Below, piece after piece: positions 13,752 through 15,170 of a stretch of 16,523 bases of DNA. Every line of letters starts with the position of its first letter. The first letter of the stretch is position 1. The position numbers were made by a program, and so were the translations under genes. Source of the DNA: a virus. Taxonomy: Duplodnaviria; Heunggongvirae; Uroviricota; Caudoviricetes. Location of the stretch: the IMG/VR virus record IMGVR_UViG_2802429251_000002; one strand, given 5' to 3'. The notes below the pieces were generated by a model, which worked only from the letters and a program-made list of their open reading frames with translations, was not told where the DNA came from and ran no database searches.

Positions 13752-14063
13752 TTATTCAGGAAATAACGCCCGGATATTTCCGGCCATCTGACTGGTTATC
13801 TGTGCGGTTGATACTGGCTGTGATGCGGGGCGTTCTGTCCTGGTTTGTGTCACTGATAATGCTTCATCACCAGCCCATGCAGCCAGTCGATAAGCCTCTG
13901 CCGGATTCATTTTCAGAAGTGCCAGCCCGGCCAGAAAAGCCACGCGTTGGCCGCTTTTGCGGGCTTCTGGTGTAAGGCTGTCCAGCCAGGCGCATGCTTC
14001 TCCTTCGTTCTTGACGGCGGTGGGCTTCAGATAGAAACTTATCCGTCTGGTTGGAGTCGTCAT
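13752..14063 (-). CDS. parR: ParR-like centromere-binding partition protein
   Basis: Internal ATG at 14063 (within track ORF 13752..14198) preceded by GGAG, 5 nt downstream of the parM stop; 103 aa. N-terminus RRISFYLKPTAVKNEGEACAWLDSLTPEARKSGQRVAFLAGLALL and the IRALFPE motif resemble plasmid R1 ParR as I recall it; gene order parM-parR. Confidence 0.7.
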   Translation of the reverse strand: MTTPTRRISFYLKPTAVKNEGEACAWLDSLTPEARKSGQRVAFLAGLALLKMNPAEAYRLAAWAGDEALSVTQTRTERPASQPVSTAQITSQMAGNIRALFPE

Positions 14064-14067
14064 TGGT

Positions 14068-15027
14068 TTACTCCTTGTCCATTGCGTACAGCCCATTAAC
14101 CAGAGCAAACTGTGGCACCCCGTCCGCGATGAAAGTCGCATTAACTCCGCAGGCTTCGCGGATAGCGGGTGCCACAATCTCCGCCCCTCCACCGACAACC
14201 ATCACCCGCCCGTAACCCGAAAAACCCGCCAGCGCGCGGATCACGCGTTGTTTCAGTGTTTCTTCCTTTTCACGAATTACCGCCATCAGGCTGGCGTAAT
14301 GCGCGTCATTGTGGATGTGCTGGCGCAGCCAGGCTTCATCATGGCGATGTTCGATAATGGTATTGGCGATGTGGTGACTGGTGCGCATACCGTTAGTGGC
14401 CATCACCGACAGTACGGCATCGGCCATCAGAGAAACGCCCACGTGTGGATCGCAAAACACCTGGCTGATACCTGCCAGTTGCCCCTGAACCTTTGCCACA
14501 TCCAGCGTGGTTCCGCCCAAATCCACAATCAGCAGGGATTCAAACGGACTCATGTCAGCCAGTGCCTTAAAGCCAGCCGGAATGGATTCAGGCATAACCC
14601 GTACGTTACGGATAGTGAATGCTTCGCCGTTCTGGTACTCCACCGGGCGCATGACGTTCGCTTTTTTGCGGTTGATGTTGGCCATGTCCGGCTGTGCGTT
14701 TGTATCGAAATACTCGCTCAGTGGCAGGGTGACAACCACATCCACTTCCTGTGGTGTGATGCCTGATTTGACCAGCGCGTGATGAATGGCAATTATATTC
14801 ACATCGCTGTACTGGTATTGCGTGTCGGTCGTCTGGACAAAGCGATCGCTGACCGGATCAAAACCATAGCGCACGCCATCAAGCATGTAGTTCGCGGGCT
14901 GCGTGCCACCGAACGGCGCAGACCATTCCGACTTGAAGCTGTTCGGGCTGATGGCGTTGCGGCGTTCGCCGTTCTCAGTCCATGCCAGCTTGATGTTGGT
15001 GGAGCCGTCGTCGATACAAATTTTCAT
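14068..15027 (-). CDS. parM: ParM/StbA-like actin-type segregation ATPase
   Basis: 319-aa ORF starting MKICIDDGSTNIKLAW; motifs YSDVN, VMPESIPAG, IDLGGTTLD, VVGGGAE and LVNG are collinear with plasmid R1 ParM (recalled); AAGGA ribosome-binding site before ATG 15027. Confidence 0.9.
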   Translation of the reverse strand: MKICIDDGSTNIKLAWTENGERRNAISPNSFKSEWSAPFGGTQPANYMLDGVRYGFDPVSDRFVQTTDTQYQYSDVNIIAIHHALVKSGITPQEVDVVVTLPLSEYFDTNAQPDMANINRKKANVMRPVEYQNGEAFTIRNVRVMPESIPAGFKALADMSPFESLLIVDLGGTTLDVAKVQGQLAGISQVFCDPHVGVSLMADAVLSVMATNGMRTSHHIANTIIEHRHDEAWLRQHIHNDAHYASLMAVIREKEETLKQRVIRALAGFSGYGRVMVVGGGAEIVAPAIREACGVNATFIADGVPQFALVNGLYAMDKE

Positions 15028-15170
15028 GTCGCTTTTCCTTATGTTGATTAATTAATCGGTTACAGGATTTTTAAATCCCGCTTTTGCCTGTTTTGTGCGC
15101 GCTTCATATATCGCGGCACGTTTTTTGCTCATTTACGGGATTTGTGAGTCCCGTTTCTGTCTGTTTTTTG
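15028..15170. promoter_or_regulatory. parC-like centromere / promoter candidate with two about 36-bp direct repeats and palindromes
   Basis: Direct repeats at 15062-15097 and 15135-15170 (28/36 identical, 73 bp apart), each with an internal palindrome (GGATTTttAAATCC; GGGAtttgtgagTCCC), plus the perfect palindrome GATTAATTAATC at 15046-15057 just upstream of the parM ribosome-binding site. The second repeat lies inside the 3' end of the replication-gene ORF. Confidence 0.45.

What the first reader, a model, noticed from the sequence alone, without database searches (positions are those of the whole stretch)
13752..15170. Complete plasmid-type ParMRC actin-like partition cassette inside a P2-like phage
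A ParM homolog (319 aa) and a ParR-like protein (103 aa), with upstream iterons, sit between the replication gene and cos/Q. In P2 this locus carries old/tin, and in relatives it is a known variable cargo or defense hotspot. A type II segregation system is not part of the canonical P2 gene set. It suggests either that this element is maintained as an extrachromosomal phage-plasmid, or that an actin-like filament system has been co-opted for exclusion, genome positioning or a similar role. This is the strongest candidate for an undescribed system in the window.
Basis: partly seen in the sequence, partly recalled or inferred. Interest (0 to 1): 0.8.

Follow-up and report, generated by a model that had tools for sequence, protein, structure and literature searches.

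The report
Known ParMR partition cassette in P2-like prophage
The window carries a real plasmid-type actin-like DNA-segregation module (ParM, ParR and two upstream repeats) next to the replication gene of a common integrated P2-like E. coli prophage; it is already annotated and noted in the literature, and its job in an integrating phage has never been tested.

Summary
ParM (14068-15027, minus strand) matches StbA_N and the ParM C domain and is 47% identical to R1 ParM. ParR (13752-14063) matches Plasmid_stab_B. Two 38-bp repeats, each with an 18-bp palindrome, lie upstream, and one sits inside the end of gene A.

The element is a P88-like (Xuanwuvirus) P2-type prophage. The cassette occurs in 1307 of 5426 complete E. 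coli genomes: 1453 copies are chromosomal and 2 are on plasmids. NCBI's annotation pipeline already names both genes, and Rousset et al. 2022 already noted that about a quarter of P2-like phages carry a putative partition system. It is therefore not undescribed.

New points from this work:
- ParMR is not the variable cargo. It is a phage-specific lineage (no more than 52% identical to plasmid ParMs) fixed just downstream of gpA in P2-like prophages of five further genera.
- It is under strong purifying selection.
- It lacks the σ70 promoter that plasmid loci carry, and its centromere has two sites rather than R1's ten iterons.

Most likely mechanism (inferred): it is expressed with the early replication operon and segregates or positions extrachromosomal phage circles, like AlpAC of prophage CGP3. 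Stable plasmid lysogeny is unlikely. In this copy gene A is cut by an IS100-type element.

The parts
15133..15170 (-). Candidate parC site A: 38-nt repeat unit with an A-rich tract and the 18-bp palindrome CGGGACTCACAAATCCCG (15136-15153). It lies inside the last ~22 codons of gene A.
   Evidence: In the full P88 genome the palindrome pattern, which was derived from these sites, occurs only at the two equivalent places. A comparable first site overlaps the gpA 3' end in the Plesiomonas prophage.
15060..15097 (-). Candidate parC site B: second 38-nt repeat unit with palindrome CGGGATTTAAAAATCCTG (15063-15080), centred about 43 nt upstream of the parM ATG.
   Evidence: It is conserved in eight E. 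coli/Salmonella/Citrobacter relatives, with changes mostly between the palindrome arms. The same two-site layout with about 72-bp spacing occurs in the Plesiomonas and Hafnia phages.
14068..15027 (-). parM: actin-like segregation ATPase, 319 aa.
   Evidence: Pfam StbA_N 3.7e-82 and ParM C 1.3e-68. PDB R1 ParM E=1.2e-92. 47% identity to an IncF R1-type ParM; the DDGSTNIK, PESIPAG, DLGGTTLD and GGGAE motifs are identical. dN/dS 0.01-0.17.
13752..14063 (-). parR (StbB family): ribbon-helix-helix adaptor, 103 aa, followed by a variable linker and a conserved C-terminal NIRALFPE tail.
   Evidence: Pfam Plasmid_stab_B 3.1e-23. 32% identity to R1-type ParR over the N-terminal 62 aa. The N-terminal RRISFYL strand and the C-terminal N-x-x-x-L-F motif are shared with plasmid ParRs. 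RHH region dN/dS 0-0.3.
15104..16448 (-). 3' part of the gpA-type replication endonuclease gene (context). It ends 76 nt upstream of parM on the same strand, with no sense-strand terminator between them.
   Evidence: Annotated as replication endonuclease in P88 and IHE3034. Terminator scan. Homology to the IHE3034 prophage stops at 16448.
16449..16523 (.). End of an IS21-family (IS100kyp-type) insertion sequence that interrupts gene A in this copy.
13098..13688 (-). Variable cargo gene downstream of parR: Ead/Ea22-like protein with an N-terminal zinc ribbon, 196 aa. This, not parMR, is the variable hotspot content.
   Evidence: Pfam Ead_Ea22 2.1e-32. Different genes occupy this slot in P88, phiSM, Chuche and the Serratia, Enterobacter, Hafnia and Plesiomonas prophages.
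13034..13049 (-). Terminator-like hairpin with a run of T, beyond the cargo gene's stop on the parM sense strand. It is the likely end of the gpA-parM-parR-cargo transcript.
   Evidence: The other minus-strand hits in that scan lie inside coding sequence.
11561..12607 (+). Portal gene Q (context). The cos region follows at roughly 12608-13097.
   Evidence: Pfam Phage_portal; annotation in relatives.

Best explanation
This is a functional type II (ParMRC-type) DNA-segregation module that belongs to the replication module of P88-like (Xuanwuvirus) and related P2-like temperate phages.

Proposed mechanism:
- ParR dimers bind the two 18-bp palindromes that straddle the stop codon of gene A.
- The conserved C-terminal ParR tail captures the ends of ATP-bound ParM filaments.
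- Filament growth pushes two ParR-bound phage DNA circles apart.

The cassette has no recognisable promoter of its own and no terminator separates it from gene A. It is therefore most likely transcribed as the distal part of the early (cox-B-A) operon: just after infection or induction, not in the repressed integrated prophage. Its substrate would be the extrachromosomal circular phage genome. Its benefit would be to spread or segregate replicating circles. That could make replication and packaging efficient, as for AlpAC of prophage CGP3. It could also ensure that both daughter cells inherit a copy before integration or lysis.

Shown here: homology, intact motifs, conserved synteny, purifying selection, non-random conserved repeats, chromosomal location, lack of a σ70 consensus. 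Inferred: ParR-palindrome binding, filament formation, time of expression and the benefit to the phage.
For: Identity of the parts:
- ParM and ParR family matches and intact ATPase motifs.
- The ParR RHH strand and C-terminal N-x-x-x-L-F tail are shared with R1-type, IncI-type and ICE ParRs.

Long-term phage association:
- parM and parR sit just downstream of gpA, on the same strand and ahead of the variable cargo and portal, in P2-like prophages of Serratia (58% ParM identity), Hafnia (62%), Plesiomonas (62%, with int/C/cox) and Enterobacter (54%). One or two small ORFs intervene in Hafnia and Enterobacter.
- Plasmid ParMs are at most 52% identical.
- The two phage ParM clades each have 100/100 NJ bootstrap support.

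Selection and linkage:
- ParM dN/dS is 0.01-0.17, and the ParR RHH region 0-0.3.
- 1278 E. coli genomes carry the cassette, against 1355 with the gpA 3' segment and 1068 with this portal.

Centromere:
- The 38-nt repeat exceeds all 1000 shuffles.
- The palindrome occurs only twice in the whole P88 genome.
- The two-dyad layout with 71-73 bp spacing recurs in the Plesiomonas and Hafnia phages although their sequences differ.

Expression:
- No σ70 match of 8/12 or better lies within 260 nt upstream of parM in the window or P88.
- All four plasmid or ICE parMR loci have one, with the -10 ending 58-74 nt before the ATG.
- No sense-strand terminator lies between gpA and parM.

Precedent: AlpC/AlpA of prophage CGP3 link circular phage DNA to actin-like filaments, are induced early and are needed for efficient phage replication (PMC4446434).

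From my own knowledge, not checked here: P2 replication yields monomeric double-stranded circles that are the packaging substrate, so the DNA resembles a plasmid.
Against: - No experiment on this cassette was found in the searched literature.
- The promoter inference rests on a consensus scan; a weak, non-σ70 or activator-dependent promoter would be missed.
- Only two ParR sites are seen, whereas R1 needs an array that wraps a ParR helix. The Xuanwuvirus ParR also lacks about 25-35 central residues present in other ParRs, so the complex may work differently or not at all.
- Some clusters hold truncated ParM: P0010 (649 member sequences) is frameshifted after residue 224, and P0006 (414) and P0017 (555) are shorter and may be contig-end partials.
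- In this window gene A is interrupted by an IS, so this copy is probably cut off from the early promoter.
- Monophyly of all phage ParMs together is weakly supported (55/100).
- The ParR structure model was low-confidence (pLDDT 57.5).
Confidence: 0.5

Rival explanations
1. Facultative plasmid lysogeny (phage-plasmid). ParMRC stabilises the phage as a low-copy episome in hosts or conditions where it does not integrate. 2022.
For: - One complete assembly lists a 34,461-bp circular 'plasmid' that is an entire P88-like phage (NZ_CP148288.1). An identical phage is integrated in another strain.
- P88-like phages also carry a hok/gef gene, a second plasmid-type stability function.
- The plasmid-prophage D6 uses an StbA-type ParM that is 47.5% identical.
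- Rousset et al. raised this possibility.
Against: - 1453 of 1455 places in complete E. coli genomes are chromosomal.
- Integrase, C and cox are present, and integration at pdxB is documented for phiSM and seen in IHE3034.
- The only replication function annotated is the gpA rolling-circle endonuclease in the repressible early operon; no theta-type Rep/ori is annotated.
- The cassette lacks the autoregulated promoter that plasmid parMR loci have.
- The single circular record could be excised or replicating phage DNA assembled from a spontaneously induced culture.
Confidence: 0.12
2. A lysogen-expressed accessory function. ParR/parC, with or without ParM, is made from the prophage and excludes or destabilises competing elements (partition incompatibility against related phages or plasmids, or an anti-phage role), as other genes at this locus do.
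For: - The locus adjoins the known P2 defence hotspot.
- ParR shows marked allelic diversification while ParM stays 98-99% identical: alleles range from 52% to 97% identity, with a recombination breakpoint after about residue 18. Incompatibility-driven selection could produce this.
- Up to three copies occur per genome.
Against: - No PADLOC match.
- No recognisable promoter of its own.
- ParMR is constant while the true cargo varies.
- The DNA-reading strand of ParR and the palindromes are the same across the ParR alleles examined, so the alleles would not differ in centromere specificity.
- Plasmid parC sequences are unrelated.
Confidence: 0.1
3. The two repeats do not form a centromere. They belong to gene A or replication (for example a secondary origin or termination signal), or they are antisense-strand intrinsic terminators. 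ParMR would then act on other DNA, or be a decaying plasmid relic.
For: - On the + strand each repeat reads as a hairpin followed by a T-rich run, and one was called terminator-like.
- A promoter-like site on the + strand (14768-14796) points towards them.
- One repeat lies inside the gene A coding sequence.
- Some ParM clusters are truncated.
Against: - The T-rich tail and strong stem are not conserved in the Plesiomonas and Hafnia phages, whereas the dyad and the ~72-bp spacing just upstream of parM are.
- Strong purifying selection on ParM and the ParR RHH region argues against a relic.
- The P2 origin lies elsewhere in gene A (own knowledge, not checked here).
Confidence: 0.08
4. The cassette acts on the host chromosome from the integrated prophage, with parC as an extra chromosomal 'centromere' that influences segregation of the region near pdxB.
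For: The cassette is chromosomal in about a quarter of complete E. coli genomes.
Against: - It is conserved in free, plaque-forming phages (P88, phiSM, Chuche).
- It travels with gpA rather than with a chromosomal site.
- It has no recognisable promoter for expression in the lysogen.
- Truncated alleles are tolerated in large lineages.
Confidence: 0.04

Closest known systems
ParMRC (parA/stb) of plasmid R1 and related IncF plasmids
   Same: Same protein families and gene order: repeats, then parM, then parR. ParM is 47% identical with identical nucleotide-binding motifs. ParR shares the RHH N-terminus (32% identity) and the C-terminal N-x-x-x-L-(F/I) tail.
   Different: - It lies on an integrating phage, not a plasmid.
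- The candidate centromere is two 38-nt units with 18-bp palindromes 73 bp apart, not ten 11-bp iterons.
- No σ70 promoter sits between the repeats, unlike TTGACT-16-TAAACT in the R1-type locus.
- ParR is shorter (103 vs 116 aa) and lacks the central helical segment.
P88-like phages (Xuanwuvirus: P88, P884B11, 520873, phiSM, Chuche) and the P2-like 'putative plasmid partitioning system' of Rousset et al. 2022
   Same: This is the same cassette. ParM is 98-100% identical and occupies the same position between gpA and the cargo, cos and portal. It was noted in about a quarter of P2-like phages.
   Different: Nothing essential. This copy carries an Ead/Ea22-like cargo gene and an IS100-type insertion in gene A.
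AlpC/AlpA/alpS of Corynebacterium glutamicum prophage CGP3
   Same: [quoted passage not shown] The prophage is integrated, and the system acts on excised circular phage DNA early after induction (PMC4446434; PMC5539076).
   Different: The host is an actinobacterium and the phage type is unrelated. Homology between AlpC/AlpA and ParM/ParR was not tested here. The function of the present cassette is untested.
StbA-type partition system of plasmid-prophage D6 (P1-like)
   Same: A phage-borne ParM of the same family, 47.5% identical.
   Different: D6 is a 91-kb plasmid prophage for which partition is needed in lysogeny. The present phage integrates.

Membership tests
Type II (ParMRC) partition system | Actin-fold ATPase ParM (StbA family) with intact nucleotide-binding motifs | tested here: met
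   Pfam StbA_N 3.7e-82 and ParM C 1.3e-68. R1 ParM PDB E=1.2e-92. DDGSTNIK, PESIPAG, DLGGTTLD and GGGAE are identical to R1-type ParM.
Type II (ParMRC) partition system | Small ribbon-helix-helix adaptor ParR encoded directly downstream of parM | tested here: met
   Pfam Plasmid_stab_B 3.1e-23 over profile positions 1-71 of 72. The start lies 4 nt after the parM stop. 32% identity to R1-type ParR. The AlphaFold monomer model was too poor (pLDDT 57.5) to confirm the fold.
Type II (ParMRC) partition system | C-terminal ParR tail that binds ParM | tested here: inconclusive
   A C-terminal N-x-x-x-L-F motif (NIRALFPE) is nearly invariant in 23 phage ParRs and aligns with KKNAMKLIN of R1-type ParR. 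Binding itself cannot be tested with these tools.
Type II (ParMRC) partition system | Cis-acting centromere parC: repeated ParR-binding sites just upstream of parM | tested here: inconclusive
   Two non-random 38-nt repeats with palindromes occur only here in the P88 genome. An analogous layout is present in the Plesiomonas and Hafnia phages. ParR binding is not shown.
R1-type parC specifically | Array of ten 11-bp direct iterons flanking an autoregulated σ70 promoter | tested here: not met
   There are only two repeat units, and no 8/12 σ70 match lies within 260 nt. The R1-type control locus shows iteron arrays and TTGACT-16-TAAACT.
Type II (ParMRC) partition system | Carried by an autonomously replicating low-copy replicon whose inheritance it ensures | tested here: not met
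   1453 chromosomal places against 2 plasmid places in 5426 E. coli genomes. The prophage is integrated next to pdxB in IHE3034.
Type II (ParMRC) partition system | ParM polymerisation with dynamic instability, and plasmid stabilisation in vivo | not testable with these tools
   This needs biochemistry, microscopy or plasmid-loss assays.
Phage-plasmid | Plasmid-type replication and maintenance as an episome, usually without an integrase | tested here: not met
   P88 and the 34.5-kb circular record both encode an integrase and only the gpA endonuclease for replication. Copies are almost exclusively chromosomal. One circular extrachromosomal record exists.
Known anti-phage defence systems | Match to a described defence protein family | tested here: not met
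   No PADLOC-DB hit for ParM, ParR or the Ead/Ea22-like protein at E<=0.1.
P2-like phage (Peduoviridae, Xuanwuvirus) | P2-type terminase, portal, capsid and gpA synteny, with near-identity to classified members | tested here: met
   Pfam Terminase_5/6N/6C and Phage_portal. 99.6% nucleotide identity to Xuanwuvirus P884B11 and 96% to P88. 99% identity to the IHE3034 prophage over 10.6 kb.

The most novel reading that the evidence does not exclude
P88-like P2-type phages have a dual lifestyle. They usually integrate, but when integration fails or after excision, the two-site ParMRC, together with the phage's hok/gef gene, keeps the genome as a heritable episome. More broadly, a Gram-negative tailed phage would use a dedicated actin-like spindle with a minimal two-palindrome centromere and a shortened ParR to organise its rolling-circle-derived monomeric genomes.
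Probability: 0.15. Interest if true: 0.6.

Novelty: already known. Interest (0 to 1): 0.3.

Why it matters
About a quarter of complete E. coli genomes carry this cassette inside a P2-like prophage, yet no function has been shown for it. If it acts as proposed, it would be a Gram-negative counterpart of the CGP3 AlpAC system. It would show that an integrating phage needs active DNA segregation during its short extrachromosomal phase, and it would offer a naturally minimal ParMRC (two binding sites, short ParR) for mechanistic study. As a genome-scan finding it is not a discovery: the genes are routinely annotated and their presence in P2-like phages is published.

Tried and rejected
- **Defence system:** PADLOC gave no hits.
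- **Known RNAs or tRNAs in the window:** none found.
- **Recent capture from a plasmid:** rejected. Plasmid ParMs are at most 52% identical, apart from a handful of near-identical 'plasmid' records (six by protein search, seven by nucleotide search). Of these I inspected only the whole-phage circle; another is a 1.4-Mb record.
- **R1-like iteron array:** rejected.
- **Own σ70 promoter:** none found by the tool's scan or by a laxer scan that does find the promoters of four plasmid or ICE loci.
- **ParR fold confirmation:** the AlphaFold2 model was too poor (pLDDT 57.5) to use for fold search.
- **Single-protein scan of genome contigs:** returned only near-identical copies. Distant relatives came from the protein search plus contig look-ups.
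- **Literature searches with word-start matching for 'ParM':** hits were spurious, e.g. Parma and Parmley.
- **Search for a paper documenting P2 packaging from monomeric circles:** nothing usable found. That point rests on my own knowledge.
- **Phage record 500465-2 as a parMR-less comparison:** it proved to be a prophage fragment without gene A.
- **First bootstrap run:** timed out and was redone with a faster distance.
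Full report
**1. What is in the sequence**

The window is a P2-like prophage read in the opposite orientation to the standard P2 map.
- Terminase P is at 9810-11561 (+) and portal Q at 11561-12607 (+).
- A non-coding stretch at about 12608-13097, next to the portal gene, is where I place cos by position alone.
- Four genes then follow on the minus strand:
  - an Ead/Ea22-like protein with a zinc ribbon (13098-13688);
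  - a 103-aa ORF (13752-14063);
  - a 319-aa ORF (14068-15027);
  - the 3' part of the replication endonuclease gene A (stop at 15104).

The 319-aa protein matches Pfam StbA_N (E=3.7e-82) and the ParM C-terminal domain (E=1.3e-68) end to end. It matches the solved structure of R1 ParM at E=1.2e-92. It is 47% identical to an IncF R1-type ParM, and the phosphate-binding, catalytic-glutamate and adenosine motifs are identical.

The 103-aa protein starts 4 nt after the parM stop behind a good Shine-Dalgarno sequence. It matches Pfam Plasmid_stab_B, the StbB/ParR family, at E=3.1e-23 over the whole profile. It is 32% identical to R1-type ParR across the ribbon-helix-helix region.

Upstream of parM there are two copies of a 38-nt direct repeat, at 15060-15097 and 15133-15170, 73 bp apart. 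The 30/38 match was not reached in 1000 dinucleotide-preserving shuffles, whose maximum was 27. Each unit holds an 18-bp palindrome (CGGGAyTyNNrAATCCyG).

**2. What the element is**

The region is 99.6% identical to Xuanwuvirus P884B11 and about 96% identical to phages P88, phiSM, Chuche and others of the Peduoviridae. It is 100% identical over the cassette to the chromosome of E. coli IHE3034. There the prophage lies next to pdxB and carries an integrase, C and cox.

P88 has the same layout: int, C, cox, early genes, gpA, ParM, 'partition protein', small cargo ORFs, portal. P88 is inducible with mitomycin C. PhiSM is a plaque-forming temperate phage that integrates at pdxB (PMC5285337 and PMC6456863).

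In 5426 complete E. coli genomes the cassette occurs in 1307 genomes. There are 1453 places on chromosomes and 2 on plasmids. NCBI's pipeline already names the genes 'plasmid segregation protein ParM' and 'plasmid partitioning/stability family protein'.

**3. It is already described**

Both proteins fall in PHROG families called 'partition protein'. Rousset et al. 2022 surveyed the gpA-to-gpQ locus. [quoted passage not shown] Their supplementary files list StbA + Plasmid_stab_B arrangements. [quoted passage not shown]

I found no functional study of the cassette. The 2026 follow-up on P2/P4 hotspots does not mention it. The claim that this is 'the strongest candidate for an undescribed system' therefore does not hold, although the function is still untested.

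**4. What this analysis adds**

*(a) ParMR is not the variable cargo.*
- ParM homologues of 54-62% identity, each followed by a Plasmid_stab_B protein, sit just downstream of gpA on the same strand in P2-like prophages of Serratia, Hafnia, Plesiomonas and Enterobacter. One or two small ORFs intervene in Hafnia and Enterobacter.
- The genes between parR and the portal differ every time: HicAB, a KAP NTPase, Ogr, unknowns, and here Ead/Ea22-like.
- Homologues at about 50% identity are on plasmids, an ICE or an integrated plasmid.
- In an NJ tree the E. coli/Hafnia/Plesiomonas phage ParMs form one clade and the Serratia/Enterobacter ones another. Each has 100/100 bootstrap support. Their union has only 55/100.
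- In the E. coli genomes the cassette (1278 genomes at 80% coverage or more) tracks the gpA 3' segment (1355) more closely than this portal allele (1068).

*(b) Selection.*
- Among eight close relatives, ParM has dN/dS of 0.01-0.17.
- The ParR ribbon-helix-helix part has 0-0.3, and its linker 0.3-0.66.
- ParR has an invariant N-terminal RRISFYLKP strand and helices, a hypervariable Pro/Gln/Ala-rich linker, and a nearly invariant C-terminal NIRALFPE. This tail aligns with the C-terminal tail of plasmid ParRs.

*(c) The centromere differs from R1.*
- The R1-type locus shows arrays of about 11-bp A/C-rich iterons around a TTGACT-16-TAAACT promoter.
- The phage has two palindromes only. They are the only two matches to the palindrome pattern in the whole P88 genome, although the pattern was derived from these sites.
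- The Plesiomonas and Hafnia phages have the same design: two GGGA...TCCC dyads about 72 bp apart, the first near the end of the upstream gene. Their sequences differ.
- The Serratia and Enterobacter phages instead have 14-20-nt inverted repeats.

*(d) Expression signals.*
- No σ70-like promoter of even 8/12 matches lies within 260 nt upstream of parM in the window or P88.
- The same scan finds one in each of four plasmid or ICE loci, with the -10 ending 58-74 nt before the ATG.
- No sense-strand terminator lies between gpA and parM. A terminator-like hairpin with a run of T lies beyond the cargo gene at 13034-13049.

**5. Most likely mechanism**

Together these points suggest a working ParMRC-type machine that is part of the phage replication module. 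It would be transcribed by read-through from the early operon. It would then be made when the genome is extrachromosomal (after infection or induction) and silent in the repressed, integrated state.

In this model ParR binds the two palindromes, its C-terminal tail caps ParM filaments, and filament growth separates phage circles. The benefit could be efficient replication and packaging, or delivery of copies to both daughter cells before integration or lysis.

The closest functional precedent is AlpC/AlpA of prophage CGP3. That pair is an early-induced actin-like protein and an adaptor that tether circular phage DNA, and both are needed for efficient phage replication (PMC4446434).

From my own knowledge, not verified with these tools: P2 replication yields monomeric circles that are the packaging substrate, which makes the phage DNA a natural ParMRC cargo.

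The steps from 'ParR binds' onward are inference. I put this explanation at about 0.5.

**6. Rivals**

  - In favour: one 34,461-bp circular 'plasmid' record is an entire P88-like phage, and an identical phage is integrated in another strain. A hok/gef gene occurs in these phages.
  - Against: the 1453:2 chromosome-to-plasmid ratio, the integrase, the absence of a plasmid-type replicon, and the missing promoter.
- **A lysogen-expressed exclusion or incompatibility role** fits the neighbouring hotspot and the marked ParR allele diversity. It has no PADLOC support and no promoter, and the ParR alleles share the DNA-reading strand and the palindromes.
- **The repeats as antisense terminators or gpA-related signals** is not supported by conservation in distant relatives.
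- **A relic** is contradicted by the purifying selection. Even so, some clusters hold truncated ParM: P0010 (649 members) is frameshifted, and two shorter clusters may be contig-end partials.

**7. This particular copy**

Homology to the IHE3034 prophage stops at 16448. The last 75 nt of the window are the end of an IS21-family IS100kyp-type element. Gene A is therefore interrupted about 1.3 kb upstream of its stop. This prophage is probably replication-defective, and its parMR is separated from the early promoter.

**8. Verdict**

The biological question, why an integrating P2-like phage keeps a partition system, is real but already posed in print. The cassette is routinely annotated. Novelty: already known. 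Interest: modest (0.3). The value lies in the points added here: a conserved phage-specific lineage tied to gpA, a two-site centromere, no own promoter and a short ParR. These shift the likely role from plasmid maintenance to the replicative phase, and they can be tested in phiSM or P88.

Noticed in passing
window 16449-16523 (junction at 16448/16449): Gene A is interrupted by the end of an IS21-family IS100kyp-type insertion sequence. Homology to intact prophages stops at 16448, and the remaining bases match IS ends next to istB in thousands of E. coli records. No complete E. coli genome in the collection contains this exact junction.
   Followed up: partly
window 13752-14009 (ParR residues ~19-103); L004; hits H34-H45: ParR exists in sharply different allele classes (52-97% identity), while the adjacent ParM stays 98-99% identical. 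The recombination breakpoint lies just after the DNA-reading beta-strand. About 12 of 30 evenly sampled E. coli records carry the divergent class, whose dS against the window is 0.7-0.9, compared with ~0.1 for parM. The palindromes are unchanged.
   Followed up: partly
window 13752-14063 compared with L003, L002, L007, L008, L010, L011: The Xuanwuvirus ParR (103 aa) lacks a ~25-35-residue segment (ELLTxxTTFxDIxxxxxxxFP) that follows the RHH core in plasmid ParRs and in the Serratia, Hafnia, Plesiomonas and Enterobacter phage ParRs.
   Followed up: no
L018 (NZ_CP148288.1, 1-34461): A record deposited as a circular 34,461-bp non-mobilizable plasmid of an E. coli cat isolate is a complete P88-like phage genome that includes the integrase. 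A 6.2-kb stretch of it is 100% identical to an integrated prophage in strain Z1323HEC0067.
   Followed up: partly
L001 34928-35068; L018 1291-1431 (outside the window): P88-like phages also carry a Hok/Gef-family toxin gene near the att end. The phage thus holds homologues of both R1 stability loci (parMRC and hok/sok).
   Followed up: no
window 14768-14796 (+) and 15060-15170 (+): The only σ70-like site found in 12600-15400 is antisense inside parM (TTGACC-17-AATTAT). On that same strand the two repeats read as hairpins followed by T-rich runs, which is terminator-like. An antisense transcript is conceivable but has no support from conservation.
   Followed up: partly
protein clusters P0010, P0006, P0017: Several clusters hold truncated ParM. 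P0010 (649 member sequences) is frameshifted after residue 224. P0006 (261 aa, 414 members) and P0017 (188 aa, 555 members) may be truncations or contig-end partials. The gene seems to decay in some prophage lineages.
   Followed up: partly
window 5392-5797 and 1-531: These stretches do not align with the otherwise 96-99% identical IHE3034 prophage. The first is a swapped segment in the lysis-gene region, and the second is different sequence at the tail-fibre end. This is typical mosaicism.
   Followed up: no
window 13098-13688 (-): The cargo gene next to cos encodes an Ead/Ea22-like protein with an N-terminal CxxC...C zinc ribbon. Its function is unknown and it has no PADLOC hit. Relatives carry HicAB, a KAP NTPase or other genes in this slot.
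   Followed up: no
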